DNA of 64,000 nucleotides from positions 1 through 64,000 of the IMG/VR virus record IMGVR_UViG_3300030107_004423. One strand, 5' to 3'. Position 1 is the first letter of the stretch. Every line of letters starts with the position of its first letter. This DNA comes from a virus. The translations under genes were made by a program, and so were the position numbers. This document shows positions 1,579 to 46,788 of this stretch, in pieces. The notes under the pieces were generated by a model. The model did not search any database, was not told the origin of the DNA, and was given only the letters and a program-made list of their open reading frames with translations.

Positions 1579-1589
1579 ATTGGTACCAA

Positions 1590-1659: not shown

Positions 1660-1672
1660 ATAACTTTCACAC

Positions 1673-1739: not shown

Positions 1740-1758
1740 AAATTTTAAAGGAGAATAA

Positions 1759-3042: not shown

Positions 3043-3254
3043 AGCAAAAGAAACCTACTAACAATGAGATAAAAACTGTTATTAGTAATATATTAATAGA
3101 ATTATCTCAAATGTCTGAATTTCTAAAAGGTTTAGATACATCATTTGCAGCTTATTTAGAGATGAAAGGTGATGCAGATAAATTAAATATATTCATCAAA
3201 GATAAAATAAAGGAGGCTAAAGATGCCCAGCAAAAGCAAAGCGAAGGGAAATAG
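3039..3254 (+). CDS. Hypothetical protein
   Basis: ATGA coupling; ortholog at 57490..57708. Confidence 0.75.
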   Translation: MKQKKPTNNEIKTVISNILIELSQMSEFLKGLDTSFAAYLEMKGDADKLNIFIKDKIKEAKDAQQKQSEGK

Positions 3255-3549
3255 ATTCGAAAGAGAAATAGTTAAGATAGCTAAAGACAGAGGATTTGAA
3301 TCTCAAAGAGCGTGGGGATCTAATGGTCAAGCGTTAGGAATGCATGAAGAAGTAGATTTGACTTTAGGCGTAAATCCTAAAATGAAAATACAAGCTAAAT
3401 GCAGAAAGAGTATAGCTTCTTATCTTATACCTACAGAGCATGTAGATGCCGTAGTATGTAAAGAAGATAGAGGAGAGCCTTTAATAATAATGAGATTTTC
3501 CGATTGGCTTGATATGCATTGGGGAAATTGTATGGTGGAGGATAGATGA
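3223..3549 (+). CDS. Holliday junction resolvase-like PD-(D/E)XK nuclease (Hjc type)
   Basis: SKAKGNRFERE...VD...IQAKCR; aggagg SD. Confidence 0.75.
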   Translation: MPSKSKAKGNRFEREIVKIAKDRGFESQRAWGSNGQALGMHEEVDLTLGVNPKMKIQAKCRKSIASYLIPTEHVDAVVCKEDRGEPLIIMRFSDWLDMHWGNCMVEDR

Positions 3550-3690: not shown

Positions 3691-3713
3691 AGGGGGGAGC
3701 ATTGCTTCCCTCT
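3691..3713. terminator. Hairpin at the convergence of the early and late arms
   Basis: aggggggagc-att-gcttccctct between convergent genes; analogous hairpin at 58221..58246. Confidence 0.55.
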
Positions 3714-6700
3714 ATGTTATTAAACTAGACATTGCTTCCATAGCTGCTTGTCTTTCAAATTCATCAAGTCCTTTGAATTTATCTCTTTTCTTTCTTTTCT
3801 TATCCTTAACACCAAAGAATTTTTTAATAGGCTTTGGAATCTTACCTCTTGCAATTTTACTCATATTTCTTTGATCTTTATCTGGAAATAATCCTAATTC
3901 TAAGAATGCTAAATCGGTAAAGCTACTGCCTTGTAAGAATGAAGGAATTGTATATGCAACAGTCCTGGCTAATTGAGCATTTATTATATTTAATTTAGAA
4001 TAAAGCTCCTCTCTTCTGTCTCCAGTCATATGTTTAAATGCAGTGTCAAAAGCTTCTTCTGTTCTAGGATCTACATTGCCATCTAAATTTGCTTTTGCAA
4101 CAAGTTCATATGCACTCATAATCATTGGAGCATTAGGACCAAGAAAATATTTACCTTTCTGTCCAAATGTTTGTCTTACATATTTCTTTATTATATCACC
4201 ATGTTCCATCTTTAAATGAGCTTTTCTACTCTTGTCATCAATTATAGTCTGTATTTGCTCTTCAGTTATTTTGCCTGAATGTAACATAGCTTGTATTTCA
4301 GCATGTAATAATAATGTCTCTCCTGTTTCTAAAACATCATTAGGCATTAATTTGGGAAGATTAACTTTACCAGCTATAGTAGCACCCCATATAAGGGCTT
4401 GTAACATACCAAATCTCATAGGCCTCATAAATTCTTCACTAGTAAAATCACCAGCTCTAGCAGAAAGTCCAGCTTCTTTTCCCCATTTATACATTAGATC
4501 TGTCATACTAAATCTATAATGAGCAAATTGACCTAATCCCATTTTAGCCATCATTGTGGCTTTACTTTCTTTTCCAGTAACACGTATAGCTTTAGCCTTA
4601 TTCCATTTAGCATATTCAAAATGCAAATCTAACACTCCAGAATAAGCTAATTCGCCAGCTTTATTTTCTATCCAATTAGACATTACTTTATCTGCATCTT
4701 TTCCATATCTTTCAACTAAATCTTTTTCAGTTATTATATAGTCATCACCTTTTTTACTTTTAATATCTGATTCATATCTTTTTAAGATTTGTTGCGCTCT
4801 CCAAGTAGAGCTAGTCTGTTCTAAATTACCATGAGCTAAGGCAAAACCCACATCAAATGTTCTTCCTCTATTCCAATCCTCAACCACTCTATGCATTCCA
4901 CCTGCAGATTTAGCTATATTACTAGAAACTCTAGCAGTAAATGCAGGATAACTATCTCCATGCTTAACTTGTAAATTTCCTTTTTCATCTACGAACATTT
5001 CATTATTATTCATATATGAATCTTCTAAAGCTCCCCTACTAGCTTCACTTATCTTTACATTCTCACCTTTTAAAGAATCAAAAGCGTTTGATGTCATATT
5101 TTTTCCATTAAACCATTGCAACCCATATTTAACTTTCTGTCTATTTACTTTAACTTGATTGCTTTCTGCTCCACCTACATTTTTATAAAATCTAGCAGAA
5201 TCACCAACAAAAGGAGCAGCAGCTTTAAATCCAAAATGAACCCACTCATATGCTCTTTGAGTACCATTTCTAGCGGCAGATCTTATATTTCCTCCCATTA
5301 ATCTAAAATATGTAACAGCTTGCATTGTTCTCATTATATTTTCTACTGTACTATCCCTTCTAGGATCTATTGTATACACATCATTATAAACATCTTCCAT
5401 TAATTGCAACATATCCATAGATGCTTCTTCCAGATCTTTTCTCCCAGCCTCTCTTGCAGGATTTAAATGCTCGTCTATAATTTTATTAGCAGCATTATTA
5501 AAATTGTCTTTAACATGTAATCTATAATTAAATATACCTACATCGCTTGCATATTTTTTAAGAAAGAAGTAAGGATCGTTATTGTATATATTATTCATTA
5601 AAGCAGTTCTAGGCTTTGCTACATTAACTATTCCATCCCAACTATCTAATTCATTTTTAATCTTAACATCTAAAGACATATCACCTCTATCTATAGAAGT
5701 TTCAATTTTTTGCAATGTTTTTATCATTCCAAGAGTATAATGAGACATATAATGAGGAGAGAAAGCTACTTTTTTATTAGTAGATATATCTTTAACATCA
5801 AATCCCATTCCTATAAAGTCTCTATTGCTTTGCATATCCTTATAGTCTATAGTTCTATTATTCTCATCTATATTCTTTTGAAATTCTATAGATTTTATCA
5901 AAGCAGATACCTTATCTATAGTACCATCAACCCATTTTAAATTTTCTTTATCTTTGGCCATTGATTTGATTTTTTGCAATCCCCTTACAAGACTAACAGA
6001 TGTAGATTTTCTTATCTGAATATAATTAGATTTCATTTTTTCTAAAGCTATTCTTTGTTTTGGCTTTAAATTGGGTATTGTAGCAATATCAGCGCCTTGT
6101 AATACATCATTCATTAACTCAAAAGCTTTACCTGATCCATCTTTATAAAATTTTTGAATCTCTAATTGATTCGCTCTTAATTTTGCTGCTACAGATGTTT
6201 TAGTTTTAAGATTCTCAGTGCTTAACCATTGATCGGATAAAGCATCGTATTCTTTTTGAAGTCTTGCTAATTTTTTTTGACCTCCAGATTTAAAAGATTT
6301 GCCTATTAAAGACTCTTCTCCTAAAGAAAGAGACAATACTTTCATATTTTGAAGAAATTCATTGATATTTTTATTAGCATTTGTACTAAAATCTCTATAA
6401 AATGAAGTTTCATCTACTAACCTTTTTTCAAATTTAGCTAATTCTGGGATATTTCTCATAGTTGCTCTAGGTAAATGAAATTTAGATGCAAAAATACCTT
6501 TTGGCTTTGATACTAATGAATCATAATATTTCAATCCTAATTCAAATTTTCTTATATGTCTATAATTTATAGGAAATTCAGATGGATCTAATGCTGGTAA
6601 ATGGGTGTATTTTTTCCAAAGCCATTCAAATGTTTCAAAATTATTCCAATTAGCATCTTTAACATTCTTATATTTACCTTTATCCCAATCGTAAGATATT

Positions 6701-6816
6701 TTATCAAGTCTATTGGCTATTATATCTTTGTCTTTTTGCTTTAATTTACTAAACCACTGATCATCACCCTCTAGTTTTTTAGCAAATGCATTTAATCCAC
6801 ATAAAAAAGCACTCAT
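3712..6816 (-). CDS. Large internal virion/ejection protein (1034 aa), variant A
   Basis: Last gene of the late arm; helical with a C-terminal hydrophobic segment; motif-level homolog of 58242..60959. Confidence 0.6.
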   Translation of the reverse strand: MSAFLCGLNAFAKKLEGDDQWFSKLKQKDKDIIANRLDKISYDWDKGKYKNVKDANWNNFETFEWLWKKYTHLPALDPSEFPINYRHIRKFELGLKYYDSLVSKPKGIFASKFHLPRATMRNIPELAKFEKRLVDETSFYRDFSTNANKNINEFLQNMKVLSLSLGEESLIGKSFKSGGQKKLARLQKEYDALSDQWLSTENLKTKTSVAAKLRANQLEIQKFYKDGSGKAFELMNDVLQGADIATIPNLKPKQRIALEKMKSNYIQIRKSTSVSLVRGLQKIKSMAKDKENLKWVDGTIDKVSALIKSIEFQKNIDENNRTIDYKDMQSNRDFIGMGFDVKDISTNKKVAFSPHYMSHYTLGMIKTLQKIETSIDRGDMSLDVKIKNELDSWDGIVNVAKPRTALMNNIYNNDPYFFLKKYASDVGIFNYRLHVKDNFNNAANKIIDEHLNPAREAGRKDLEEASMDMLQLMEDVYNDVYTIDPRRDSTVENIMRTMQAVTYFRLMGGNIRSAARNGTQRAYEWVHFGFKAAAPFVGDSARFYKNVGGAESNQVKVNRQKVKYGLQWFNGKNMTSNAFDSLKGENVKISEASRGALEDSYMNNNEMFVDEKGNLQVKHGDSYPAFTARVSSNIAKSAGGMHRVVEDWNRGRTFDVGFALAHGNLEQTSSTWRAQQILKRYESDIKSKKGDDYIITEKDLVERYGKDADKVMSNWIENKAGELAYSGVLDLHFEYAKWNKAKAIRVTGKESKATMMAKMGLGQFAHYRFSMTDLMYKWGKEAGLSARAGDFTSEEFMRPMRFGMLQALIWGATIAGKVNLPKLMPNDVLETGETLLLHAEIQAMLHSGKITEEQIQTIIDDKSRKAHLKMEHGDIIKKYVRQTFGQKGKYFLGPNAPMIMSAYELVAKANLDGNVDPRTEEAFDTAFKHMTGDRREELYSKLNIINAQLARTVAYTIPSFLQGSSFTDLAFLELGLFPDKDQRNMSKIARGKIPKPIKKFFGVKDKKRKKRDKFKGLDEFERQAAMEAMSSLIT

Positions 6817-9800
6817 TTATTTGCTCCTATAACAATCTATTAAATTTCTTACTCTTTGTTGAGTATTTTCTTGTACTCCGCCACGATCACCTAAGTCTTG
6901 TCGTCTTAAAGCGTCTCGCTCACTAACAAACAACTTCTTCACTCCATATTGCCTTACATTTCCATCTTCAGTAGTAGCATATTCAGCTGTACCCCACTGT
7001 CTGTCTACAGGCAGTACAGGTTCTAATGCTTTTTGAGCTTTATATAATATAACAGGATCTATAAGTTTATCAGTAGTTGCATATTCTATCATAACTCTAG
7101 CTGCATTTTTTTGCATATCATTTCCAGCTTCTCTTATATCAAATACATCTTGAGTTAAATATGTTTCTTTTGTCATATGCCCATCTATACTAGCAGGCTC
7201 TGTATACATTCTAGATGTAAGTATTTGAGCATCTATATTTGGATTTTGAACCTTAGTATAATGAGCTGTTTTTAAATAGTTTATATCATCTAAAACATCT
7301 TTTGCATAATCATTATATCCACCATCAGGCCTATATTCACCTGTAGACAAGCTAGAAAGCAATCCAAGTACAGGTTCACTTAATCCATTTTCATAAAATA
7401 CATAGTCATATACAGCTTTCTTTTGATTTCCATCATTAACGCTTCTCATTGATACAATTTTATTAGATATATTAGGTATTAACATCCTCATTATCAAAGC
7501 TTTTCTTTTTATATCTGTCATCTCAGGATCATTAAATAGTCTATCATACAACAAAGCTCTTCTTTGTATCACAAAATCTTCTATTCCATACCTACCAACT
7601 TCTTTTGCATTACCTAATTCTATAAGCTCTTTTTGAATACTTTTATATTCACCTTTTATTCCATTATTAAGTTCATAGGAAGAAAGTGTTTTTATCATAG
7701 CTTCATCACCTGTTCCTTCTCTTATAGTAGGTAATCCAGCAAAAGCTTCAAATAAAGTTCTTAATCCTTTTTGTTCTTCACCATTAGTAGCTTCAAATCT
7801 TCTACCATTTTGTATTACTTTATCTTTAAATGATATATTTTGAATATTATATTTTCCTGGCCTTATAACTTCTTTTATCTTGCCATCAGCGCCTATAACT
7901 ACAAAAGGTTTTTTACTGTTATTCTTAAATGCTCCTGATTTTTCTGCTCTTTTTTGTAAAATAGGAATATTAGGCTTAATTGGATCTTCCCCCATCATAT
8001 ATGAAATAGATTCTTCCATCCCTATTCTTAACTCTTCTATATTAGATAGCCTTGCCCTCATACTTTTTAAATTTTCAGACTCTTCAACACTTTTTTCAAA
8101 TTTCTTAGACTTATCTATCTCAAATTTCAAATCTCTTTCTTGCTTTTTAAGCTCTAAAACTTTTAAAAATCTTGCCTCATCTCCAACATATTCTCTTAAA
8201 GCAGCATTAAATAATCTATTGTGTTTTTCAGCATCAGTTTTTCCTTGAACAGCAGCATATCCATTATCTATAAAATCAATTATTTGGTCTTGAATAGAGA
8301 ACCCTTTTCCATAAGCTCCTTGCCCTTTTAAAGTATTTAAATCTTCATAAGTTCTATGAAGTTCTTGCATAGCAATGTCATATGAATTTTTAGAATTATT
8401 AAAATAATTTCTAGCAGCTATTAAACTAGGCTCCATATTAATAGAAGGAGGTATTCCCCAATTCTTACTAGGATCTAATGTCATTCTATATAAATTAACA
8501 AAAGCATTATTATAACTTGATAATTTTGCAGATCTATCAACACCAGTAGCATCTGTCTCTACTCCTTGATTGTATTTTAAATATTTATTTAGAGGATCTA
8601 TTATCCTTGCTCTTATAGCATTTATAGCTGGTTGAAATCTAGAATCCATCATATCGACTTTATCTAAAAGCGTGAACATTCCAGGAGTATCTTCGTATCC
8701 AACTTGGAATAAACCATCCTTACCAAACCATACTTGATTTTGAATCTCTCTTATTTGCTTAACATTAGCTTTGGATGGAAGTCTTTTGTAAACATCTATA
8801 AACATTTTTGCAAGATTAGATATATTATCAACAGTAGCTACATAGTTATACTTAGAATTAAATCTTATTTGTATATTTGTCTTTGCCGCTTTGAACATTT
8901 TAGTTTCTTGAGTCAATATTACTGGATTTTCTCTAAACATATTTGCTAAATAAGTAGCTGTTTGATGCATTTTTATAAATTGACCCCTAGCCATATTAAC
9001 TTCATTCAATATCATATCATTTGTATATTCACCTTCAAATAGATTAGGCAATGTTTTTGCAAATTCACCTATTCCTACATTAGGATCAAATATTTTATTT
9101 AGAACACTAGAAGGATTTGTTTGTGATCCTGTAATATGTCCAGACAATTTATTTGCTTCTCTCCAAAATTTACCAGGAGCTGCAACATAATTAAATGATT
9201 TATCAAAATCAAAATCTGCGTCTTGTGGAGTTATAGCATCTGAATGATTCATTCTACTAACATTTCCAGCTTCTCTATCAACATATGATCTCATGTCATT
9301 GCCTTCTCCAGTGACTGCCATCTTGCTTATAACTATATCACCCATCATATTTCTAGGCTGTCTACTATTTAACATTCCTATTGCCATATCTTTATCATAA
9401 TTTTTTATAACTAGATTAGCATCATTTATTGTTGTATGGTTATCTATCAAATAATCATCGCCTGTTTTTAAGTTGTATACAGCATCTTCCTTAGAAACAG
9501 CTTTATTATATGTATTTTTAAGTGATTCTGATTTAGCTAAAATTCTACCATCATCAATGTCTATGTATTCACCCTTACTATTAATATATCTTCCTTCTAC
9601 TTGTAAAAATCTTTCTCCTTTTATATTTACAAGAAATCCATCTGCTACTCTTTTACCTACTATAAATTCACTAGCAGGTTCATATTCAACTCTTTGTATT
9701 ATAACATTATGAACTCCATTTAATTCAGGCTTAGTGCTATGAATAAATTTCTTCTGAGAGGCATAATAAGAAGGTAAAAATTCACCAAAAAACTGAACTA

Positions 9801-12800
9801 CAGGCCTATCATTTAGATCAGATCTAACTGTAATATCTAAATCTCCCATATCAGCAGTCATAACATCTAAAGAACCATCCTTAACTATACCACCAGCTAT
9901 AGAGCCATTATTTAGGTAGTATCCGATAAGATTATCTTCTAGCCTCCTTTGAGCCCAAGGTTCAATAACAAGGCCACCTCTAGTCAATATAGAGCTTATA
10001 GCGCTATTAACAACGGAAGGATCTCCTGTTTCTGCCTTAGCTCCTAATACTTTTTGAGCTAAACCAGTTCTATAATATGCATTGCTATACATATGAGATA
10101 CGCCTTGTCTATAATTTGCAAGTTTCTTTTCCACACCTATCCATTCAGATACTCCAGAATCATTAGACATATGCACTGCTGCATTTGCTCCAACCAAAGG
10201 ATCTTTTTGCTTAGATATAGTTCTTAAACTCATAGCATCAAGGGGAATTTCTGTTATTCTATTTGCATTTGTAATTCTACCAGCTTGACTTATATATTCA
10301 TGCCAAGGCTTATTAACATCAGTAGTGCCAGCAACTCCTGCATACCTATCTTCATATTGATCATTTTTACTACCTTTATAAGCATTTATTTTATTAGCAG
10401 ATTTAAATGTAAGAGCATCTATTCCTAAATCTGAAAGTATATCATCTAGTAATGGATTATATTTAAAGGCTGTTTTTGCAAACCATTCTTCAACCTTTCC
10501 ATAATCACTACTATTTGCATCTTCATAGGATACCTTAGAATGTGTTATTGTAGGCTTTATTGCTCCTGATTTAAAGCCTGTAACCTTTCCATTCATATCT
10601 GTCATAACCATATCAGGATGTAGACCTATCATAGCCATAGATGCTAAATAGAAATCTTTAGATACATACATTTCTCCATCTACTATTGATTTTGTAGTCT
10701 GCTCTATTCGTTCTATTTCTTTATCTCTATGAGTATCATCTATTAAGCCATCATTAAATTTCTTTTCTAATTGAGCTCTAGATCTATCTAATGAACTAAA
10801 TATATTTCCTATTATATTATCATTATTGTCTCTTAATACAGCCTCGTCATCTATAGAAAGAACTTTTAATTTTTTAAATTCTCCATTAGCTTGAGGCTCT
10901 AACCAATCTTTAACATCTTCATATACATTTTTAAATAAATCTGATTGAGATGTTCTATACATCATAGCTGTTTTTTCTCTATTGCTATCAGTTGGAACAT
11001 AACCATTTTTGGTTTCATTTAGCTTGTCTCTTTTAAATCTATCTTTAATATAGTCATGATCTAAATCTATAGCACCTTTGCCTACTACACGCTCTATAGC
11101 AGAAGGCATATTTAATATCATTCTTGCAAGCTTTATACCTTCTACTAAAGCATTGTCTCCAGAAACATCTCTTATTTGAGAAAGCTTATCATTTATAGCT
11201 CTATATTTATCTTGTGTAATATCTCCATCTAATATAGCTTCTAGAATTTTAAATAATCTACCATCAGCACTAAATTGAGCTTTAATATTTTCATGTAATG
11301 ATCCTGGATATTTATCTGTTCTAACTATTATAGATGTAGATTCATTCATAGGTATAGCTGTATATGTTTCATGCTGAGAAGGGGGATCATAATTTGTATC
11401 GTGTATTTTTGTATTATCTTGATATTTATACCAATCAGCTTTTCCTTGAGGATTAACAATTCTCATATTACCACTATCTAACGATGCATTAATATCATTT
11501 AATCCAAATCCGTTTATATTTCTTATAACATTTCCATCAGAATTTATAGCACTAGTTTCAGCTAAATAAATAAAGCTTTGATTAGGATCTAATGCTTTTA
11601 TAAGCCCTGTAAATCCTCTATTGTCAGTTTCTCCAACTACTTTATATCCTTGTATTAATCTAGGTCTCCCCTTAGTCAAATCTATTTTAAGAGTTTTTAT
11701 TGGCATCTTAGAAAAATAATTAGATGTTATGGCATAAACATCGCTATCTATCATATCTAAGCCAGGTTTATTTTCTGGTTTCAAATCATCTATAGCTATT
11801 TGCATTCTAAACTTCAAAGGATCAACTACAAATTTTTCAAAGTTTTTAACATCTAAAACAACTTCTCCTTGTTGATTTTCCAATGTTCTTATCATTTTTA
11901 ATACATTGGCTTTCAATCCAGGATTTTTAATATTATCAGGAGTAATTGCATATTCTCCTAATATTTCATTGACCAATGCTTTTAAGTCTTTAGCTTCTTT
12001 TTTGCCCATTCTATCTATAGCAAAAATTTCATCTAAACTCTTTGTTGGTATTTTATATTTAGATGCAAATTGAGCTGTAGTTATTTTCATTATTTTATCA
12101 TTTACATCTTTTTCGTGTATTTTATCAGCATACTTTGCTAATTCTTCTTTAACGAAGTCTTGAATATTGGATTCGTTTATAACTATTTTTTGTGCTTCAG
12201 ATTTTATATCTTCATTAACCCTAATAAGTTCTTCCATATAAGACATTCTATCTGAATTTCTAGGATTATAAGCTACTCTATTAAATATATCATTTATATC
12301 GCCATCTTTTCTGCTAATAGCTCTTAATAGATATGGATCATTCTGATCTAGAGCACTTTTAATAGTTTGCTTTAAATTTATAGTAACTTTTCGATCATCT
12401 AATAATTGCTGCAATTCTTTTTCGTATTTAGTTCTAGCTTTATCTGATATATTATCAACACCAAGTTCTATATTCTTAATTATGCCTATTTTTTGATCCA
12501 TATTAGATAGATATCCATCTAAATTCATAATCATAGATTTAGCTCTTGGTTGAGCCCAATCAGTCATAGCTACCTCTCCTGCAGCTAATGATTTTTGCAA
12601 AGAAGTTATCCAATCATCTGTAGTTGTTTCTACTAAATTATCCTTAAATTCTACTGGATGTTTTGATTTAGATATATTATCTACTAATTGCTTGTAGTGT
12701 TTATCTAAAGCATTGTACATAGATTCACTTATTTTATTACCTTTATATGCAGAAAGTAATTTCCTAGAAACACTGCCATAGTTAGGCATTACAGGCTTCA

Positions 12801-15759
12801 ACCCATCTTCTTGATAATTAAAGGTTATATCTTGCATTAATGTGACTAAGCTAGCCTTGGTATCTACCCCACCTGCTAAATCATCCATTCCAAGCCTTCT
12901 TAATGACTTTTGAATTATATAATTATTAAATTCATCATGCATCTTCTTATCTGAAAATAAATCACCTGTAACTGATTTTACTTTCTCCACCAATGCTTGA
13001 GCTTTATCCATCTGAATAACTCTAGGATTTTTTGTATTCAAGTCAGGATATAAAGATTTCATTGAAGAGTTTAATCTTTTAATAAATAAAGCTATCTCTC
13101 CATAATTTTCAGCATCTCCTTCAGGTTTTAATACTTGTACTTCACCTTTAGTTAATATATTTGCATTTATAGCATTTAAAATATCTCTTGCATCGTTTTG
13201 AGGAGCTCCATGTTCTTTTCCACCAGTTAATAATTCATATGCATTTCTTCTTTGTTTATGCCTTAATACTCTATTATATGGTATAGCCCATGAATCACTT
13301 ACAAGTATAAATGGATCAAGCTCTTGATTTTTTTGCCAATTCTCTCCCCAACTATGACTCATCAATCTTTCTGACGCACCTTTCCATGAATCGTGAGCAA
13401 TAGCTATATTTTCTTGAGATAACATAGCTTTATCTACAGATATAGGATCTCCTGGTTGAATCCAATTATTTTTAAGTCCTTGTCCATATATAACTGATAT
13501 AGCTTCATCTACAACTCTATCTCCAAAATCAACAGAAGACAAATCAGGCATTCTTATTACGCCATTTTCATCGTTATAAGCTATGTCTAGCTTTTCCATT
13601 ACATCTATTAAAAAATCTCTTTGTATTTGTTGAGGAATGTTTATAGCTTGAGATAATCTTTTATCCATCCATTCTTCTAATTGATATGATAAATTGTTAG
13701 CTGTTAACTTAGTCCCATCAAACTTTATAGAAGATATTTTAGTTACTACTTCCATAGCTTGGTCAGGAGTTAAATTATTTATATTTATTCCTTCAGCACC
13801 ATTAGCATCATATTCTTTTAATATTTTCTCTGCAATTAGTAATTTCTCATAAAATGGTAAAGTTTCATCATAGCTTAATTTGCCATCCTTCACCAAGTCA
13901 GCCATTGCTTTATTGAACGATGTATTTAAATCAGCCCCTGCTACACCACCATCATCTGGGAATTTAGACATAATTTCTTTTATTTCTGAAAACTCTTTAC
14001 TGCCATCTAAGGTTGTTTTTATTACATTTTTACCTTCAGCATAATTATCTAGCTTAGAATTTCCATAAGCATTTACTATTTCATTCAAACCAATAGGATC
14101 ATCTATTCCAAATGTCTTAAGACTTCCTACTATTTCTTTTAATTGTTGAGATTTAAATTTACTATATCTTTCTATATTACCTGTTTCAAATAATTTGTTA
14201 AAGTATTTCCCATCCATTTTAGCATGAAAACTATGAGGCTTTCTGGTAAAGAACATTGCTGTCCATATATTGGCTACTTGTTCTTCCCTTGTAGCTCCTA
14301 ATGCTTCTGAGGCATTGTCCATAGACCATCCTTTTTGATTAAAAGACATGGCCATTCTAGGAGCATTCATAGCTACTACACCAGCAGACATTCTAGGTAA
14401 AGATGCAATCATATCAGTAGTAAATTCTCTAGCCCAATATGCAGGAGCTTTTAATACAAATTCTGATCTAGCAGCACTTAACATTTCTCTCATTGCTTTT
14501 GTGCTTTCTTCATCAGTCGCATCTACCCACCATTGTTTACCACCTCCTCCAGCAGCATTCTTTGTAAATTTCTTACCCAAATTAGTACTTAGATATTTTC
14601 CTGATATTTCATCCATAGCAGTTAATTGATATCTTAATTCTTTATTTGTGTAATCCTTTATAGGCTTCCAATATGATTTGAATGAATTTCTAACCAAGCT
14701 GCCAAGCCTACCTAAATGACTAGCTTGAGTACCACCTTTTAAGAATGATATAGGACCCATTGCAGAGTAATACATACTTTCTGTTATAGCTTCATTATAC
14801 CATGCATTAAAAGATTTTCCTGCATCTATATCGTAATCACCAGTATAATAAGGTTGCTGATTTTCATTAAAATCTACTCCAAACATTTTAGTTTGAGCCA
14901 TTTTAGATGCAGCTCTAACTGAAGCCATTCCAAATCCAATAGCCGCATCATATGCCGCTGCTCCTAATATAGCACCTGTTTTAGGTCCTGCTCCTGGGAT
15001 TTTCCTTCCAAGCATCTGTAATATAGCAAATGCATCATCAGGATTATTCTTCATTACTATATCTACAGTCTCTTTAGCAATACCCTCTACTAATTCTTCA
15101 TCTCCAAGTTTTAATATATCTGTTATATTTTCTTTTATACCCTCTTTAAATACATCTTTATATACTTCTCTAGAAACATTACCTTCTATAGCATTTATTA
15201 CATTAGAATCAGATTGAACATCATAAGCATCATCTATTATTTTTCTAGTTTTATTCTTTGTAAGGGTTTCGGTTAAATTTATACCTTTCTTTGAAGGCAT
15301 TTTAGATGCAATACCTATTAAATCTTCAACAGAAGTTGCCTTTGCTAGCCCAGGAACATTCATAAGTAATTTACTTCCACCTCTTATTCCTGCACTAACT
15401 GTTTTAGCAGCTAATGTTAATGGACTTAACATACCTGCAACTTGACCTACGGTTGCACCAGCTCTAGCGGCTCCTGTCATTTCTTCGTATTCAACTCCAG
15501 GAGATAATCCTAAAGAAAACATATCCTCCATAGTTGTTACATCTTCACCTTTATATATTTCTTCTTTTGCAACGTCAGATGCTCCAGGTATACCAAGTAA
15601 AGCTTCATCAGCAGCCTTCCAAAGCGCTTGTCCTAAGAAGTCATATACTGCACTGCCTGTAGTAGTTCTTTTTATTTCAGGAGCAATCTCTTCTCTATTT
15701 AATCTTTCTTGTATTACTTCCCAAGTTATATCATCTCTACTTTTATCTTGACTGCTCAT
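6817..15759 (-). CDS. Giant virion protein (2980 aa) with a putative double-psi-beta-barrel RNA polymerase (crAss-like virion RNAP)
   Basis: VDGEMY, AIKPTIT, FAKTAF and GIDALTFKSANK (beta-like barrel lysines), then NSRQP...QDADFDFD (DxDxD at 9202..9222); lies in the ejection cluster. Confidence 0.75.
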   Translation of the reverse strand: MSSQDKSRDDITWEVIQERLNREEIAPEIKRTTTGSAVYDFLGQALWKAADEALLGIPGASDVAKEEIYKGEDVTTMEDMFSLGLSPGVEYEEMTGAARAGATVGQVAGMLSPLTLAAKTVSAGIRGGSKLLMNVPGLAKATSVEDLIGIASKMPSKKGINLTETLTKNKTRKIIDDAYDVQSDSNVINAIEGNVSREVYKDVFKEGIKENITDILKLGDEELVEGIAKETVDIVMKNNPDDAFAILQMLGRKIPGAGPKTGAILGAAAYDAAIGFGMASVRAASKMAQTKMFGVDFNENQQPYYTGDYDIDAGKSFNAWYNEAITESMYYSAMGPISFLKGGTQASHLGRLGSLVRNSFKSYWKPIKDYTNKELRYQLTAMDEISGKYLSTNLGKKFTKNAAGGGGKQWWVDATDEESTKAMREMLSAARSEFVLKAPAYWAREFTTDMIASLPRMSAGVVAMNAPRMAMSFNQKGWSMDNASEALGATREEQVANIWTAMFFTRKPHSFHAKMDGKYFNKLFETGNIERYSKFKSQQLKEIVGSLKTFGIDDPIGLNEIVNAYGNSKLDNYAEGKNVIKTTLDGSKEFSEIKEIMSKFPDDGGVAGADLNTSFNKAMADLVKDGKLSYDETLPFYEKLLIAEKILKEYDANGAEGININNLTPDQAMEVVTKISSIKFDGTKLTANNLSYQLEEWMDKRLSQAINIPQQIQRDFLIDVMEKLDIAYNDENGVIRMPDLSSVDFGDRVVDEAISVIYGQGLKNNWIQPGDPISVDKAMLSQENIAIAHDSWKGASERLMSHSWGENWQKNQELDPFILVSDSWAIPYNRVLRHKQRRNAYELLTGGKEHGAPQNDARDILNAINANILTKGEVQVLKPEGDAENYGEIALFIKRLNSSMKSLYPDLNTKNPRVIQMDKAQALVEKVKSVTGDLFSDKKMHDEFNNYIIQKSLRRLGMDDLAGGVDTKASLVTLMQDITFNYQEDGLKPVMPNYGSVSRKLLSAYKGNKISESMYNALDKHYKQLVDNISKSKHPVEFKDNLVETTTDDWITSLQKSLAAGEVAMTDWAQPRAKSMIMNLDGYLSNMDQKIGIIKNIELGVDNISDKARTKYEKELQQLLDDRKVTINLKQTIKSALDQNDPYLLRAISRKDGDINDIFNRVAYNPRNSDRMSYMEELIRVNEDIKSEAQKIVINESNIQDFVKEELAKYADKIHEKDVNDKIMKITTAQFASKYKIPTKSLDEIFAIDRMGKKEAKDLKALVNEILGEYAITPDNIKNPGLKANVLKMIRTLENQQGEVVLDVKNFEKFVVDPLKFRMQIAIDDLKPENKPGLDMIDSDVYAITSNYFSKMPIKTLKIDLTKGRPRLIQGYKVVGETDNRGFTGLIKALDPNQSFIYLAETSAINSDGNVIRNINGFGLNDINASLDSGNMRIVNPQGKADWYKYQDNTKIHDTNYDPPSQHETYTAIPMNESTSIIVRTDKYPGSLHENIKAQFSADGRLFKILEAILDGDITQDKYRAINDKLSQIRDVSGDNALVEGIKLARMILNMPSAIERVVGKGAIDLDHDYIKDRFKRDKLNETKNGYVPTDSNREKTAMMYRTSQSDLFKNVYEDVKDWLEPQANGEFKKLKVLSIDDEAVLRDNNDNIIGNIFSSLDRSRAQLEKKFNDGLIDDTHRDKEIERIEQTTKSIVDGEMYVSKDFYLASMAMIGLHPDMVMTDMNGKVTGFKSGAIKPTITHSKVSYEDANSSDYGKVEEWFAKTAFKYNPLLDDILSDLGIDALTFKSANKINAYKGSKNDQYEDRYAGVAGTTDVNKPWHEYISQAGRITNANRITEIPLDAMSLRTISKQKDPLVGANAAVHMSNDSGVSEWIGVEKKLANYRQGVSHMYSNAYYRTGLAQKVLGAKAETGDPSVVNSAISSILTRGGLVIEPWAQRRLEDNLIGYYLNNGSIAGGIVKDGSLDVMTADMGDLDITVRSDLNDRPVVQFFGEFLPSYYASQKKFIHSTKPELNGVHNVIIQRVEYEPASEFIVGKRVADGFLVNIKGERFLQVEGRYINSKGEYIDIDDGRILAKSESLKNTYNKAVSKEDAVYNLKTGDDYLIDNHTTINDANLVIKNYDKDMAIGMLNSRQPRNMMGDIVISKMAVTGEGNDMRSYVDREAGNVSRMNHSDAITPQDADFDFDKSFNYVAAPGKFWREANKLSGHITGSQTNPSSVLNKIFDPNVGIGEFAKTLPNLFEGEYTNDMILNEVNMARGQFIKMHQTATYLANMFRENPVILTQETKMFKAAKTNIQIRFNSKYNYVATVDNISNLAKMFIDVYKRLPSKANVKQIREIQNQVWFGKDGLFQVGYEDTPGMFTLLDKVDMMDSRFQPAINAIRARIIDPLNKYLKYNQGVETDATGVDRSAKLSSYNNAFVNLYRMTLDPSKNWGIPPSINMEPSLIAARNYFNNSKNSYDIAMQELHRTYEDLNTLKGQGAYGKGFSIQDQIIDFIDNGYAAVQGKTDAEKHNRLFNAALREYVGDEARFLKVLELKKQERDLKFEIDKSKKFEKSVEESENLKSMRARLSNIEELRIGMEESISYMMGEDPIKPNIPILQKRAEKSGAFKNNSKKPFVVIGADGKIKEVIRPGKYNIQNISFKDKVIQNGRRFEATNGEEQKGLRTLFEAFAGLPTIREGTGDEAMIKTLSSYELNNGIKGEYKSIQKELIELGNAKEVGRYGIEDFVIQRRALLYDRLFNDPEMTDIKRKALIMRMLIPNISNKIVSMRSVNDGNQKKAVYDYVFYENGLSEPVLGLLSSLSTGEYRPDGGYNDYAKDVLDDINYLKTAHYTKVQNPNIDAQILTSRMYTEPASIDGHMTKETYLTQDVFDIREAGNDMQKNAARVMIEYATTDKLIDPVILYKAQKALEPVLPVDRQWGTAEYATTEDGNVRQYGVKKLFVSERDALRRQDLGDRGGVQENTQQRVRNLIDCYRSK

Positions 15760-16556
15760 TTAGCCCCTTCTTCTAAATATTTAACTAATTGTTCATGCGT
15801 TAAAAGGTTGTTTTTTAATACTTTCCCTACGCCAGATTCTTTATGCAATATAGTACCAAGTTCTGCTTGTTTGTTAATTAGAGCATTATACTCTTCTTTG
15901 GCTTCTATTTCAGGTGCATATTCATAGCTCGTTGAATCTCTTGAATCATAAGCCTTTCTTAATAATTCCTTTGTTTCTTTTATACCTTCATTTGCAAATC
16001 CAAATTCTTGGTTTTCTGGATCCCAATACCAATCTCTATTTTCTATATTTTCAAGACCTTTTAAAGCAAATATATCTGTCAACCCAAGAATTGCTTGTGC
16101 TGGAGCTCCTGGGATAATATTAAAAAGTGAATATTTACTTCTTTCATCAAACTCTTTTCTTTGTTGTGTTATAGCATCAGTTAAATTGGCTATTTTTAAA
16201 GAATCTAATGATTTTTGCTGTTGATACTCATCCATATTTAAAGCTAAAGTTTCATCATTAAACCTTGATAATGCTTTTTCATTTTCAGAAAATTGCCTTA
16301 GTGTTTCTAATAATTTAGCATCTGTATGTTTAGTGGATACACTGAAAGCTTTTGATTCTGGATTTCCATATTCTATAGCAACAGTTTCTAATAAATGCTG
16401 ATTTATAATTTCTTTAGATCCTGGCACCATATCAATATATTCTTTTACAGGCATCTTGCTTTTAGCACCCAAAGTACCTGATTCTAAAAATTCAATCTTC
16501 TTGTCATAAGATGAAATATTTTGAAATCTTTTTAATAAAGCTGTTATATTATCCAT
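15756..16556 (-). CDS. Putative internal virion protein
   Basis: Coupled ORF in the ejection cluster. Confidence 0.5.
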   Translation of the reverse strand: MDNITALLKRFQNISSYDKKIEFLESGTLGAKSKMPVKEYIDMVPGSKEIINQHLLETVAIEYGNPESKAFSVSTKHTDAKLLETLRQFSENEKALSRFNDETLALNMDEYQQQKSLDSLKIANLTDAITQQRKEFDERSKYSLFNIIPGAPAQAILGLTDIFALKGLENIENRDWYWDPENQEFGFANEGIKETKELLRKAYDSRDSTSYEYAPEIEAKEEYNALINKQAELGTILHKESGVGKVLKNNLLTHEQLVKYLEEGAK

Positions 16557-17770
16557 TATTCAGCTCCTAAATTTCCAATTATTCTATCAAATTCATCTTC
16601 TTGTATTGTATCATCAACTTGGCCTTCATCTAAAATTCCTTCATTTCTAAAGTCATATAATAATGATTGTGTATATAATACATTTTCTGCTTCTGCAAAG
16701 TTTTTAAATAAGCCATTGAATCCAAAGATCCTTTGAGCTACTTGCTGTATTTCATCTTTGTTATCAGCCTTACTGTAATGTTCGTATGCTTTTTGTACTC
16801 CCTCATGATAAGCTGTAAAATCTCCTGGAGTATATTTGCCTTCCATTTTAGATCCTGCTGCCAATTTAAACATCATATCATATTCATCATATAGAGAATC
16901 GCTAATAGGCACTCCATATAATACTGATAAGTCTTGCATAATATCTGCTTTAAGCGTTGCAGATTGCATTAATGGTTCATTTTGATTAGCAGGAAGATCA
17001 TCATACTTTTCATCATTAGCAGCAAAATTATATGCATCAACCATTGATTTACCACTAGTTGTTTTGGCACTTGAAATTCTTTGTTTGTACCAATCACGTG
17101 ATTTGTCTGGTCCAGATCCTTCAGTTTTTCCTTTATAGTAATTATATTTTTGCTCACTTATTTTTTGTTTATAGTCTGTAGATTGCAAAGTAGATAAAGC
17201 TGTTTGGATAGATCCTGGATTAGCTTGGAAATATTCTTCTACCTGTGGAGTTACAGCATCTTCTCCATAAAATGCTTTAAAAGCATCGATATTAATATCT
17301 TGAACATCCCATCCAGTAAGATCAGAACCTCCTGTAGGCCCAGCTCCACCTGCCATTATATTCTTAGCTTTTCTTACATCATCAACTAATACACCACTCA
17401 TAATATCAGTTTTAGTAGCAAAATTCATAGCTTGATCGCTATAATAGTCAGCCCTAGCTGCATAATCATCTGCTTTAACTGTACTAATATCATCTAATAC
17501 TTTTAATGATTTATTTGTTTTAAACATATCATTTAATTTTTCAAGACTTAATCCAGTCTCTAGATATTTTTGTCTAGTCTCATTATAAAGTCTTTCATTT
17601 CTTATTGATTCTGTTTTTGCATCTTGATATAAAGATAGGTTAGCTTGATACTCTCTTTCATCTTCTCTTATCTGCTTGTTATGTTCTAATTGAGCCATTG
17701 CAATGCTATATTGTTGCATTAGCTTAGGAAGATCATCTATCAGTTCTTTTAAATCACTTTTATAGCCCAT
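16556..17770 (-). CDS. Putative internal virion/ejection protein
   Basis: N-terminal coiled coil; gene position. Confidence 0.55.
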   Translation of the reverse strand: MGYKSDLKELIDDLPKLMQQYSIAMAQLEHNKQIREDEREYQANLSLYQDAKTESIRNERLYNETRQKYLETGLSLEKLNDMFKTNKSLKVLDDISTVKADDYAARADYYSDQAMNFATKTDIMSGVLVDDVRKAKNIMAGGAGPTGGSDLTGWDVQDINIDAFKAFYGEDAVTPQVEEYFQANPGSIQTALSTLQSTDYKQKISEQKYNYYKGKTEGSGPDKSRDWYKQRISSAKTTSGKSMVDAYNFAANDEKYDDLPANQNEPLMQSATLKADIMQDLSVLYGVPISDSLYDEYDMMFKLAAGSKMEGKYTPGDFTAYHEGVQKAYEHYSKADNKDEIQQVAQRIFGFNGLFKNFAEAENVLYTQSLLYDFRNEGILDEGQVDDTIQEDEFDRIIGNLGAE

Positions 17771-46784: not shown

Positions 46785-46788
46785 GCGA

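What the first reader, a model, noticed from the sequence alone, without database searches (positions are those of the whole stretch)
6817..15759. 2980-aa virion protein containing a single-chain multisubunit-type RNA polymerase with an atypical DFDFD active site
Seen: the motifs IVDGEMYVS, GAIKPTIT, WFAKTAF and GIDALTFKSANKI come first. About 350 aa later come LNSRQPR (9352-9372) and PQDADFDFDK (DADFDFD at 9202-9222). Established: two-barrel RNAPs have a lysine-bearing beta-type barrel followed by RxP and a DxDxD Mg loop (NADFDGD in beta', DYDGD in QDE-1, DFDID in the phi14:2 crAss-like virion RNAP). Here the usual Gly is Phe. The gene sits among the ejection proteins. Inference: an injected RNAP for early genes in a compact ~55-kb podovirus whose capsid and replication genes are not crAss-like, and so possibly an undescribed lineage with this transcription system. 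The ~1600-aa N-terminal part is unexplained and could serve translocation or autoinhibition.
Basis: partly seen in the sequence, partly recalled or inferred. Interest (0 to 1): 0.88.

Follow-up and report, generated by a model that had tools for sequence, protein, structure and literature searches.

The report
Injected two-barrel RNA polymerase, marine podophage
A 2980-residue late-gene protein of an uncultured ~55-kb marine phage has in its middle a predicted single-chain, cell-type (two-barrel) RNA polymerase most like the virion polymerase of crAss-like phages, so this unrelated and much smaller phage lineage probably also injects its own transcription enzyme.

Summary
ORF 6817-15759 (minus strand) encodes 2980 aa, and every quoted motif is at the stated place.

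A DxDxD motif alone is expected about 1.5 times by chance in a protein this size. The conservation is not chance:
- PQD[AS]D[FY]D[FLM]DKS and the upstream RxP are kept in all 62 homologues found by the first search, down to 24% identity.
- In a 46-row alignment, R2133, P2135, D2180, D2182, D2184, D2186 and K2187 are 7 of only 15 invariant columns.

An AlphaFold2 model of aa 1641-2500 (pLDDT 84.6, pTM 0.86) best matches phi14:2 gp66 (6VR4) by Foldseek. By VIA-align it matches QDE-1 and RDR2 at Z about 14 over both barrels.

No sequence or profile method links the protein to the crAss polymerase family. The capsid, portal and terminase proteins are not crAss-like either. It is therefore a new lineage of a known kind.

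Injection is inferred, not shown. The evidence is gene order, an almost cysteine-free four-gene block, and a conserved pair of terminal cysteines (Cys2976 here, Cys6 of the next protein). That pair mirrors a solved disulfide in the pre-ejectosome of phage A4.

The N-terminal 1150 aa are all-helical with no known fold.

The contig is about 1.5 copies of a 54.6-kb genome, taken from two variants.

This scan has reported the same kind of enzyme before on other DNA.

The parts
6817..15759 (-). Giant gene, 2980 aa (P0001): candidate virion RNA polymerase
   Evidence: The ORF is. There are 62 full-length-type homologues of about 3000 aa in marine metagenomes and 84 representatives at E<=1e-3. Pfam, PHROGs, PDB sequences and GenBank phages gave no hit.
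14200..15759 (-). N-terminal conserved region, aa 1-520. It is helical, with Gly/Ala-rich hydrophobic segments at about aa 107-125 and 263-281.
   Evidence: This is the best conserved part outside the polymerase. The first ~170 aa are the only stretch BLASTP aligns significantly with the second-variant giant protein (26% identity, E 9e-8). The model is all-alpha.
10840..14199 (-). Poorly conserved helical middle region, aa 521-1640; function unknown
   Evidence: The model of aa 1-1150 is all-alpha (pLDDT 74.8, pTM 0.47). Foldseek against the PDB gave nothing at E<=1e-3. aa 1151-1640 were not modelled.
10360..10692 (-). First (beta-like) barrel region, aa ~1690-1800, carrying the conserved lysines
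   Evidence: Beta-strands lie at model residues 57-155. K1735, P1736, K1762, T1763, F1785, S1787 and K1790 are at least 90% conserved. Trimmed hhalign lines GFKSGAIKP up with DGVKVGA..P of the crAss polymerases, but weakly (probability 30%).
9400..10359 (-). Connector and inserted domains between the barrels, aa 1801-2120
   Evidence: Model pLDDT here is mostly 84-97. The QDE-1 and RDR2 alignments span this region (model 12-840).
9160..9399 (-). Second (beta-prime-like) barrel, aa 2121-2200, with RQP and the metal loop
   Evidence: Strands lie at model 486-493, 502-507, 527-530 and 547-551, with the loop at 537-546. Pol I/II/III largest subunits align from model ~313 to ~710 at Z about 10.
9352..9372 (-). 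LNSRQPR: the N-x-R-x-P motif of the second barrel (R2133, P2135)
   Evidence: R2133 and P2135 are invariant in 46 of 46 rows. The most distant homologues have RTP, the second variant has RGP, and gp66 has RIP.
9202..9216 (-). DFDFD: proposed Mg-binding triad D2182, D2184, D2186
   Evidence: The triad is invariant. It aligns with DWDGD of the second-variant protein, whereas D2180 aligns with Gln there. The DFD-x-DK form is shared with gp66's DFDIDK.
8938..9021 (-). Long conserved helix, aa 2247-2274 (RGxFVKMHQ): candidate bridge helix
   Evidence: It is helix 607-634 of the model. R618 and H625 are at least 90% conserved. The assignment is an inference from its position after the second barrel; it was not checked residue by residue.
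6820..8259 (-). C-terminal region, aa 2501-2980; not modelled except for its start
   Evidence: It is conserved across the close relatives (51% mean column identity). The co-fold with the next protein's N-terminus gave weak support.
6832..6834 (-). Cys2976, the only cysteine in 2980 residues
   Evidence: Positions are. All 73 full-length family members have a Cys in the last 7 residues, against 0.17 expected.
3712..6816 (-). Downstream partner gene, 1034 aa, whose single cysteine is Cys6 (codon 6799-6801)
   Evidence: It always follows the giant gene in relatives, at 33-58% identity. Each relative has one Cys, at position 5-7. Pfam and PHROGs give no family and tblastn against GenBank phages no match. 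It has no HExxH, unlike phi14:2 gp65.
15756..17770 (-). Two upstream cysteine-free genes (266 aa and 404 aa): probable further internal or ejection proteins
   Evidence: Neither has any Cys. They are syntenic in relatives. Together with the giant gene and its partner the block has 2 Cys in 4684 aa, against 31 expected from the other late proteins (binomial P 1.4e-11).

Best explanation
The gene encodes a giant internal virion protein. Its central third, aa ~1690-2500, is a single-chain two-barrel (double-psi beta-barrel) DNA-dependent RNA polymerase of the QDE-1 / crAss-gp66 type.

Proposed layout of the polymerase:
- The first barrel (aa ~1690-1800) supplies conserved lysines.
- The second barrel (aa ~2121-2200) supplies the RQP motif and the Mg-binding triad D2182/D2184/D2186, in a DFDFDK loop.
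- A conserved long helix (aa 2247-2274) is the likely bridge helix.

Proposed mechanism (inferred):
1. The protein is made late and packed inside the capsid as part of the pre-ejectosome.
2. Its C-terminus is clasped to the N-terminus of the next protein (1034 aa), probably by a Cys2976-Cys6 disulfide.
3. It is threaded unfolded through the tail into the cell ahead of, or together with, the DNA.
4. There it refolds and transcribes the plus-strand early/replication genes independently of the host polymerase.
5. The host enzyme then probably transcribes the late operon.

Shown here: the ORF, its family, the invariant motifs, the predicted fold, the gene order and the cysteine pattern. Inferred: packaging, injection, template choice and timing.
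For: Fold:
- The AF2 model of aa 1641-2500 has pLDDT 84.6 and pTM 0.86.
- The top Foldseek PDB hit is 6vr4_A, phi14:2 gp66 (E 1.7e-4, probability 1.00, TMq 0.41). QDE-1, RDR2 and Pol I/II largest subunits follow.
- VIA-align gives Z 14.7-13.7 with RDR2 and QDE-1 (373-449 aligned residues, rmsd 4.8-7.0, model 12-840). It gives Z 10.5 with P32 gp64 and about 10 with Pol I/II/III and vaccinia largest subunits.
- BFVD gives 23 hits at E<=1e-3: first unnamed entries (accessions A0A516...; best E 3.5e-22, TMq 0.58), then crAss-like polymerases.

Catalytic residues:
- They are invariant across the family.
- They are kept in the colinear but very distant second-variant protein (hhalign probability 99.5%, E 3.8e-23; DFDFD aligns with DWDGD and RQP with RGP).

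Context:
- The gene is the penultimate gene of the late operon and is followed by a large protein. The same holds for phi14:2 g066/g065 and for A-4L gp27/gp26.
- Proteins known to be ejected are cysteine-free: N4 gp50, gp51 and gp52 have none. Here a four-gene block has 2 Cys in 4684 aa against 31 expected.
- Those two cysteines face each other across the gene junction in every relative. The same is seen in phi14:2 gp67/gp66/gp65.
- The same arrangement is a solved disulfide, gp27 Cys1715 to gp26 Cys5, in the pre-ejectosome of cyanopodophage A4 (PMC12002296).

Co-fold of the giant protein's last 380 aa with the partner's first 400 aa (my own alignments were used, so the calibration counts hold only roughly):
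- Verdict: weak support. Score 0.47; best of 3 controls 0.00.
- The mark was reached by 58 of 80 solved complexes and 2 of 110 mismatched pairs.
- At a score of 0.60 or under it was reached by only 7 of those 80 solved complexes, and by both mismatched pairs that passed.
- The runs agree in at least 24% of contacts, and the partner's pLDDT is at least 55.

Functional precedent: gp66 is a virion-packaged, rifampicin-resistant RNA polymerase for early genes (10.1101/2020.03.07.982082).
Against: - No sequence or profile method connects the protein to any RNA polymerase: Pfam, PHROGs and PDB by phmmer, a family profile against the PDB, and hhalign against gp66 and against a 22-row crAss alignment (probability about 1%). 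Trimmed barrels reach only 14-30% probability.
- The fold evidence rests on a predicted model. I could not inspect coordinates, so the position of the Asp triad and the lysines in the active site is not verified residue by residue.
- There are no proteomic, transcript or activity data for any member; none is cultured.
- No repeated early-promoter motif was found.
- In the gp66 crystal, a non-glycine DFDxD loop sits in an inactive conformation. Activity therefore cannot be read from the motif.
- Pfam did not identify a DNA polymerase in this genome, which leaves room for a replicative role.
Confidence: 0.72

Rival explanations
1. It is a real two-barrel RNA polymerase but is not injected. It would be made late and act inside the infected cell, for example on late genes, or be packaged without being ejected.
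For: Packaging and ejection were not tested. Phages such as P23-45 also have non-virion two-barrel polymerases; 8f72 is among the structural matches at Z 10.5.
Against: - The gene lies at the far end of the ~43-kb late operon, among unannotated cysteine-free proteins. A late-gene polymerase encoded there would arrive too late to transcribe that operon.
- A size of 2980 aa, 1640 helical N-terminal residues and the terminal cysteine clasp match ejected cargo proteins of crAss phages and of phage A4.
Confidence: 0.1
2. The two-barrel core has another nucleic-acid activity: a primase, an RNA-dependent polymerase, or a PolD-like DNA polymerase that serves replication.
For: - Pfam found a helicase, ERF, a resolvase and DUF932 but no DNA polymerase in the genome unit.
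- QDE-1 and RDR2, the best Z matches, also use RNA templates.
- PolD shares the two-barrel core (PMC7708050, listed).
Against: - The best Foldseek match is a DNA-dependent virion RNA polymerase, gp66.
- PolD does not appear in either top-50 list. That is an absence from a list, not an exclusion.
- The gene is in the structural/late operon, not the replication module.
Confidence: 0.06
3. It is chiefly a structural ejection or channel protein, and the polymerase core is an inactive relic.
For: - About 70% of the protein is not polymerase.
- The Gly-to-Phe/Met/Leu change in the metal loop might disable catalysis. In the gp66 crystal, the DFDID loop is in a conformation incompatible with catalysis.
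Against: - The Asp triad, RxP and the barrel lysines are the most conserved positions in proteins that have otherwise diverged to about 20% identity. That argues for selection on catalysis.
- gp66, with DFDID, is active, and each of its Asp is needed.
Confidence: 0.06
4. The motif is a chance DxDxD in a long, low-complexity ORF or a mis-assembled one.
For: About 1.5 DxDxD are expected by chance. The contig is a composite of two variants.
Against: Full-length homologues of 2950-3200 aa occur on dozens of independent contigs. The motifs are invariant and the fold prediction is confident. The gene also lies well inside one variant.
Confidence: 0.01

Closest known systems
Virion RNA polymerase gp66 of crAss-like Cellulophaga phage phi14:2 (PDB 6VR4) and its Crassvirales orthologues
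   Same: - A single chain with the beta-like barrel before the beta-prime-like barrel; it is the best Foldseek match.
- An R-x-P followed 39-49 aa later by DFD-[hydrophobic]-D-K, not DFDGD.
- A giant protein with long unexplained flanks.
- The penultimate gene of the late operon, followed by another large protein.
- Almost cysteine-free, with a conserved C-terminal Cys facing an N-terminal Cys of the next protein.
   Different: - No detectable sequence or profile similarity.
- 800 aa longer, with about 700 extra N-terminal residues before the first barrel.
- No N-terminal Cys and no large Cys-ended protein upstream, so the chain has two members rather than three.
- The partner lacks the HExxH zincin motif of gp65.
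- The genome unit is about 55 kb rather than about 100 kb.
- MCP, portal and TerL belong to other families.
QDE-1 (Neurospora) and plant RDR2, eukaryotic RNA-silencing polymerases
   Same: They give the highest VIA-align Z (14.7-13.7), over 373-449 residues covering both barrels and the connector. They too are single-chain two-barrel enzymes.
   Different: They are eukaryotic cellular enzymes of about 1000-1400 aa with DYDGD-type loops (from my own knowledge). They are not virion proteins. Identity over the aligned residues is 11-14%.
Coliphage N4 gp50 (Schitoviridae virion RNA polymerase)
   Same: The strategy is the same: a polymerase domain in the middle of a ~3000-3500-aa, cysteine-free protein encoded in a podophage structural region, and ejected with two further proteins (PMC13434306 abstract).
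   Different: N4's catalytic domain is of the T7-like single-subunit type (from my own knowledge). Here the predicted fold is two-barrel. N4 gp50, gp51 and gp52 have no terminal cysteines.
Cyanopodophage A4 (Anabaena phage A-4L) pre-ejectosome proteins gp27 and gp26 (PMC12002296)
   Same: - The same place in the gene order: the last two large late proteins before the opposite-strand replication genes.
- Each protein has one cysteine, near the C-terminus of the first (1715 of 1717) and at residue 5 of the second.
- The N-termini are MSKHCGL in A-4L and MSAFLCGL here.
- In A4 the two cysteines form a solved disulfide.
   Different: gp27 is 1717 aa, has no DxDxD and shows no profile similarity to this family. 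The paper never mentions an RNA polymerase (0 occurrences).
Thermus phage P23-45 gp96 (tape-measure-fused virion polymerase) and gp64/P32 gp64 (non-virion polymerase)
   Same: They are phage single-chain two-barrel RNA polymerases. P32 gp64 (8f72_B) matches at Z 10.5 over 369 residues.
   Different: gp96 is fused to a siphovirus tape measure (PMC10770324). The match is weaker than to QDE-1 or gp66.

Membership tests
Two-barrel (double-psi beta-barrel) RNA polymerase superfamily | Two double-psi beta-barrels forming one active site; here in one chain, beta-like barrel first | tested here: met
   Tested on a predicted model only (pLDDT 84.6). Foldseek's top hits are 6VR4, QDE-1 and RDR2. VIA-align gives Z about 14 over model 12-840. 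The psi-loop topology was not inspected by eye.
Two-barrel (double-psi beta-barrel) RNA polymerase superfamily | An invariant DxDxD metal-binding loop in the beta-prime-like barrel | tested here: met
   D2182, D2184 and D2186 are invariant in 46 of 46 aligned rows, and the motif is present in 62 of 62 homologues. It aligns with DWDGD in the second variant.
Two-barrel (double-psi beta-barrel) RNA polymerase superfamily | An R-x-P motif some 35-50 aa upstream of the Asp loop | tested here: met
   R2133 and P2135 are invariant and lie 49 aa before D2182. gp66 has RIP 39 aa before its loop.
Two-barrel (double-psi beta-barrel) RNA polymerase superfamily | Conserved basic residues in the beta-like barrel facing the active site | tested here: inconclusive
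   K1735, K1762 and K1790 are at least 90% conserved. Their position relative to the Asp loop could not be measured, because no coordinates were available.
Two-barrel (double-psi beta-barrel) RNA polymerase superfamily | A bridge helix and a trigger loop after the second barrel | tested here: inconclusive
   A long conserved helix lies at aa 2247-2274. The Pol II alignments run on to Rpb1 residues ~1100-1400. There is no residue-level check.
Two-barrel (double-psi beta-barrel) RNA polymerase superfamily | Mg-dependent, template-directed RNA synthesis | not testable with these tools
   This needs a biochemical assay.
crAss-like virion RNA polymerase family (gp66 orthologues) | Detectable sequence homology to gp66 orthologues | tested here: not met
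   - phmmer and a family profile against the PDB, which holds 6VR4, found nothing.
- The representative search of 1.84 billion proteins listed only proteins of about 3000 aa and shorter fragments, with none of the ~2000-2700-aa size class of gp66 orthologues; the library carries no names.
- hhalign against gp66 and against a 22-row crAss alignment gave probability about 1%.
- Trimmed barrels gave 14-30%.
crAss-like virion RNA polymerase family (gp66 orthologues) | A DFDxD loop with a non-glycine at position 4 | tested here: met
   This family has DFD[F/M/L]DK. The crAss consensus is DFDIDK.
crAss-like virion RNA polymerase family (gp66 orthologues) | The host genome belongs to Crassvirales (crAss-type MCP, portal, TerL) | tested here: not met
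   - BLASTP of MCP, portal and TerL against phi14:2 g091, g093 and g094 found no similarity.
- The families differ: here portal phrog_156, TerL phrog_38 and Pfam SU10_MCP; phi14:2 has phrog_6547, phrog_6681 and phrog_11589.
- No profile-profile or tree test was done.
crAss-like virion RNA polymerase family (gp66 orthologues) | Presence in the virion and delivery into the host | not testable with these tools
   Only indirect signs are available: gene order, cysteine depletion and the terminal cysteine pair.
N4-type virion RNA polymerase (T7-like single-subunit fold) | A T7-like right-hand polymerase domain | tested here: inconclusive
   Pfam gives no RNA polymerase hit. The central domain is predicted to be two-barrel. 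The N-terminal 1150 aa are all-alpha. aa 1151-1640 and 2501-2980 were not modelled.
Disulfide-clasped pre-ejectosome pair (phage A4 gp27-gp26 type) | A single Cys at the C-terminus of the first protein and at residue ~5 of the next; otherwise no cysteine | tested here: met
   Cys2976 of 2980 and Cys6 of 1034. The rule holds in all 9 relatives for which both proteins are on the locus and in the second variant. A-4L gp27 has Cys1715 and gp26 has Cys5.
Disulfide-clasped pre-ejectosome pair (phage A4 gp27-gp26 type) | An actual disulfide and a location in the capsid core | not testable with these tools
   The co-fold of the two termini gave weak support only: 0.47 against a best control of 0.00. 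The mark was reached by 58 of 80 solved complexes and 2 of 110 mismatched pairs; at 0.60 or under, by only 7 of those 80 and by both mismatches that passed. The runs agree in at least 24% of contacts and the partner's pLDDT is at least 55. My own alignments were used, so the counts hold only roughly. No interface was reported.

The most novel reading that the evidence does not exclude
This lineage shows how virion two-barrel polymerases are built and delivered. A QDE-1/gp66-type polymerase is embedded in the protein that occupies the 'gp27' position of a generic podophage pre-ejectosome. It is covalently clasped by a terminal disulfide to the next ejection protein, so the enzyme enters the cell as one link of a threaded protein chain.

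On this reading, the crAss cargo block (gp67-gp66-gp65), the phage A4 gp27-gp26 pair and this module are versions of one ancient ejection apparatus. The eukaryotic RNAi polymerase fold would then be spread far more widely among small marine phages than among Crassvirales alone.
Probability: 0.3. Interest if true: 0.82.

Novelty: new variant of a known kind. Interest (0 to 1): 0.68.

Why it matters
In the papers I read, single-chain two-barrel virion polymerases were demonstrated for crAss-like phages (about 100 kb) and for Thermus phage P23-45. My knowledge of the literature beyond those papers is limited.

A family of about 3000-aa proteins in ~55-kb marine podophage-like genomes has the same predicted fold and the same DFD-x-DK loop. 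It shows no detectable sequence similarity to the crAss enzymes and comes with unrelated capsid genes. Three things follow:

- **Distribution.** The 'bring your own cell-type polymerase' strategy appears to be much more widespread in ocean viruses than annotation shows. Neither Pfam nor PHROGs recognises this protein.
- **Origin of the fold.** The family gives a second, independent set of sequences for asking how the QDE-1-like fold arose and moved between phages and eukaryotes.
- **The Gly position.** Natural variation at position 4 of the loop (F/M/L in this family, G in the co-assembled second variant) could be used to test how the non-glycine loop is activated.

The terminal cysteine pair links the enzyme to a structurally solved ejection apparatus and is directly testable.

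Tried and rejected
Searches that found nothing:
- Pfam, PHROGs and PDB-sequence searches of the whole protein.
- tblastn and megablast against GenBank phages with the giant protein, the window DNA, the second-variant giant protein and the 1034-aa partner: no match.
- A family profile against PDB sequences gave only helical-repeat noise and a chance 14-residue match to Wza.
- hhalign of the family profile against gp66 and against a 22-row crAss alignment was not significant. Trimming to single barrels gave colinear but weak motif-level alignments (probability 14-30%), which I do not count as homology.

Other tests:
- The partner protein has no HExxH zincin motif of the gp65 kind.
- Roseobacter phage CRP-810 was one of only two cultured phages that the MCP search hit (24% identity). 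Its 2016-aa internal protein has no DxDxD.
- A-4L gp27 and gp26 show no profile similarity to this family and have no DxDxD.
- The model of the N-terminal 1150 aa found no PDB match at E<=1e-3.
- The ESM Atlas search with aa 1-560 gave only unnamed viral clusters. Its weak leads (LPD22, P22 gp16) score below 0.9.
- The repeat search for an early-promoter motif in 46300-58100 found nothing convincing, only one 26-nt pair.

Considered and rejected:
- A chance motif.
- An assembly artefact. The composite contig does not affect this gene.
Full report
**1. The observation**

The window has one ORF at 6817-15759 on the minus strand, 2980 aa. All six quoted motifs are present at the stated coordinates:
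- The group IVDGEMYVS / GAIKPTIT / WFAKTAF / GIDALTFKSANKI spans aa 1692-1791.
- LNSRQPR is at aa 2130-2136 (window 9352-9372).
- PQDADFDFDK is at aa 2178-2187, with DADFDFD at window 9202-9222.

With 7.9% Asp, about 1.5 DxDxD are expected by chance, and three occur. The motif by itself is therefore not evidence.

**2. The family**

Pfam, PHROGs, PDB sequences and GenBank phages give nothing.

The metagenome protein collection holds 62 homologues, nearly all of 2950-3110 aa and mostly from marine samples (Tara, JGI, ENA). An exhaustive HMMER search of 1.84 billion representatives finds 84 at E<=1e-3, again about 3000 aa or fragments of such proteins.

In all 62, the loop reads PQD[AS]D[FY]D[FLM]DKS. 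An RxP (RQP, or RTP in the most distant members) precedes it.

In a 46-row alignment with 22% mean column identity, only 15 columns of the 860-aa core are invariant. Seven of them are R2133, P2135, D2180, D2182, D2184, D2186 and K2187. In the first motif group, K1735, P1736, K1762, T1763, F1785, S1787 and K1790 are at least 90% conserved.

**3. The fold**

An AlphaFold2 model of aa 1641-2500, built on 37 rows, has pLDDT 84.6 and pTM 0.86.

- Foldseek against the PDB ranks phi14:2 gp66 (6vr4_A) first (E 1.7e-4, probability 1.00). QDE-1, RDR2 and the largest subunits of Pol I/II follow.
- VIA-align gives Z 14.7-13.7 with RDR2 and QDE-1 over 373-449 residues spanning model 12-840, which covers both barrels. 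It gives Z 10.5 with phage P32 gp64. It gives Z about 10 with Pol I/II/III and vaccinia largest subunits over model ~313-710, which covers the second barrel and the following helix.
- Against predicted viral structures (BFVD) there are 23 hits at E<=1e-3. Unnamed entries (accessions A0A516...) come first (E 3.5e-22, TMq 0.58), then crAss-like polymerases and phi14:2 itself.

The metal loop (model 537-546) lies between a short helix and a strand of the second barrel. I could not read coordinates, so the active-site geometry is not verified residue by residue.

**4. Which three Asp**

The record is 82,923 bp. It consists of about 1.5 units of a 54.6-kb genome taken from two variants. Positions 1-28 kb match 54.6-82.9 kb at 68-88% nucleotide identity in blocks, but 3.5-21 kb has no nucleotide match.

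The positional equivalent of the giant gene in the second variant (genome 60959-69451, 2830 aa) shares only 26% identity over the first ~170 aa by BLASTP. The family profile nevertheless aligns it colinearly end to end (hhalign probability 99.5%, E 3.8e-23). In that alignment RQP pairs with RGP and DFDFD pairs with DWDGD, while D2180 pairs with Gln.

The triad is therefore D2182/D2184/D2186. It survives divergence that has erased almost everything else, and the canonical Gly reappears in the sister lineage.

**5. Relation to crAss-like phages**

gp66 has the same local grammar: RIP, then 39 aa, then DFDIDK. The crAss consensus keeps Ile at position 4. The non-glycine position is thus the crAss signature and is not unique to this protein.

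Beyond that, the two families are not connected by sequence. The profile against the PDB and hhalign against gp66 or a 22-row crAss alignment (probability about 1%) find nothing. Single-barrel trims give only colinear, weak alignments (probability 14-30%).

The phage's other hallmark genes differ as well:
- MCP matches Pfam SU10_MCP.
- The portal is phrog_156 and TerL is phrog_38.
- phi14:2 falls in phrog_11589, phrog_6547 and phrog_6681.
- BLASTP between the pairs finds nothing.
- The nearest cultured relatives by MCP or portal are at 22-26% identity.

Related contigs of 52-59 kb fit a ~55-kb genome.

Gene order is nonetheless alike. The order is TerL, portal, one gene, MCP, several genes, a metallophosphoesterase, several genes, large proteins, the polymerase, and one more large protein, followed by the opposite-strand replication genes.

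**6. Is it injected?**

This is not shown, but three indirect lines point that way.

- **Synteny.** The order 404 aa, 266 aa, giant, 1034 aa, then an opposite-strand resolvase is conserved in the relatives.
- **Cysteine depletion.** These four proteins contain 2 Cys in 4684 aa. The phage's other late proteins predict 31 (P 1.4e-11). N4's ejected gp50, gp51 and gp52 have none.
- **Facing cysteines.** The two cysteines face each other across the gene junction: Cys2976 of 2980, and Cys6 of the next protein.
  - Every relative keeps exactly this arrangement.
  - All 73 full-length family members have a Cys in the last 7 residues, against 0.17 expected.
  - The second variant has Cys2829 of 2830 and Cys4.
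  - phi14:2 shows the same rule along gp67 (Cys1797, its last residue), gp66 (Cys3 and Cys2179) and gp65 (Cys3).

Earlier notes of this scan led me to a published precedent, which I then read. In cyanopodophage A4, the C-terminal helix of gp27 inserts into gp26 and is fixed by a Cys1715-Cys5 disulfide in the outer layer of the pre-ejectosome (PMC12002296).

I checked A-4L's sequences. gp27 has a single Cys at 1715 of 1717, and gp26 a single Cys at 5. Its N-terminus is MSKHCGL, against MSAFLCGL here, and the pair sits at the same place in the gene order. However, gp27 has no DxDxD and no profile similarity to this family.

A co-fold of the giant protein's last 380 aa with the partner's first 400 aa gave weak support only (my own alignments were used, so the calibration counts hold only roughly):
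- Score 0.47; best of three controls 0.00.
- The mark was reached by 58 of 80 solved complexes and 2 of 110 mismatched pairs.
- At 0.60 or under it was reached by only 7 of those 80, and by both mismatches that passed.
- The runs agree in at least 24% of contacts, and the partner's pLDDT is at least 55.

**7. The rest of the protein**

aa 1-1150 fold as all-alpha (pLDDT 74.8, pTM 0.47) with no PDB match.

The N-terminal ~520 aa are the best conserved part outside the polymerase. They contain two Gly/Ala-rich hydrophobic stretches. Their first ~170 aa are the only part that BLASTP aligns significantly with the second variant. A role in packaging or membrane passage is plausible but untested.

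aa 1151-1640 and 2501-2980 were not modelled.

**8. Mechanism, and what remains open**

The most likely reading is a late-made, capsid-stored enzyme clasped to its partner. It would be threaded into the host and transcribe the plus-strand early genes, as gp66 does in phi14:2, where the enzyme is rifampicin-resistant, Mg-dependent and needs each Asp.

Open points:
- No early-promoter motif was found.
- Pfam found no other RNA polymerase and no sigma factor in the ORFs scanned, so late transcription by the host enzyme is assumed.
- Pfam also found no DNA polymerase. That keeps a small probability for a replicative role of the two-barrel core.

**9. Novelty**

The kind is known: a virion single-chain two-barrel polymerase. 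This lineage is not described in the papers I could search. No family library recognises it, and it sits in a non-Crassvirales genome about half the size of a crAss genome.

This scan has reported the same kind on other DNA, for example a 3,018-aa protein in a 47.6-kb phage and a 3,505-aa protein in a 50-kb phage. It has also reported the terminal-cysteine rule many times in crAss-like phages. Those are unchecked AI notes, not independent evidence. No look-alike of this sequence was on file.

Noticed in passing
window 1-28000 versus genome 54596-82923 (L013, L014): The 82.9-kb record is about 1.5 units of a 54.6-kb genome from two variants. Replication genes and some structural genes are 68-88% identical at the nucleotide level, but 3.5-21 kb (the ejection and tail genes) has no nucleotide similarity. 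It is either an assembly chimera of co-occurring strains or a heterogeneous concatemer. CheckV's '100% complete' applies to the composite.
   Followed up: partly
genome 60959-69451 (L014:6959-15451, minus); the window holds 60959-64000: The second variant's giant protein (2830 aa) is a colinear but extremely distant homologue (hhalign probability 99.5%). It has RGP followed by DWDGD, that is, the canonical Gly. It too has no hit in PHROGs or GenBank phages.
   Followed up: partly
window 6799-6801 and 6832-6834; L002-L012; L015/L016 (phi14:2); L019 (A-4L): A terminal-cysteine rule holds. The giant protein's only Cys is near its C-terminus, and the next protein's only Cys is at residue 5-7. This is conserved in every relative, in phi14:2 gp67/gp66/gp65 and in A-4L gp27/gp26, where it is a solved disulfide. 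The N-terminal MS..CGL motif is shared by the 1034-aa protein and A-4L gp26.
   Followed up: yes
window 3712-17770: This is a cysteine-free block of four consecutive late proteins (404, 266, 2980 and 1034 aa), with 2 Cys against 31 expected. N4 gp50-52 and CRP-810 gp34-36 are likewise cysteine-free. This may be a usable compositional marker for ejected proteins.
   Followed up: partly
window 46831-46856 and 51852-51877: A 26-nt direct repeat, 88% identical (GGAATTGTAATAAAGGTTTTAAAAAA), lies upstream of two plus-strand early ORFs. It is a possible promoter or regulatory site. With only two copies it could be chance.
   Followed up: no
window 1-3549 and 46986-58003 (plus strand): The replication module has a DnaB-like helicase, ERF, DUF932, Nmad1 (DUF1599) and an Hjc-type resolvase. 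Pfam recognised no DNA polymerase in it.
   Followed up: no
window 24875-25666: A metallophosphoesterase (phrog_221) sits inside the structural operon, at the same relative place as g075 of phi14:2.
   Followed up: no
protein P0057: A 24%-identical family member is labelled by NCBI as coming from a Candidatus Marinimicrobia MAG and lies on a 222-kb contig. This could be a host hint, a prophage or a binning error.
   Followed up: no
window 37106-42574: An 1822-aa tail-spike-like protein gives many repeated matches to phrog_4636, phrog_6002 and phrog_23837. It contains internal repeats at 37690-41399.
   Followed up: no
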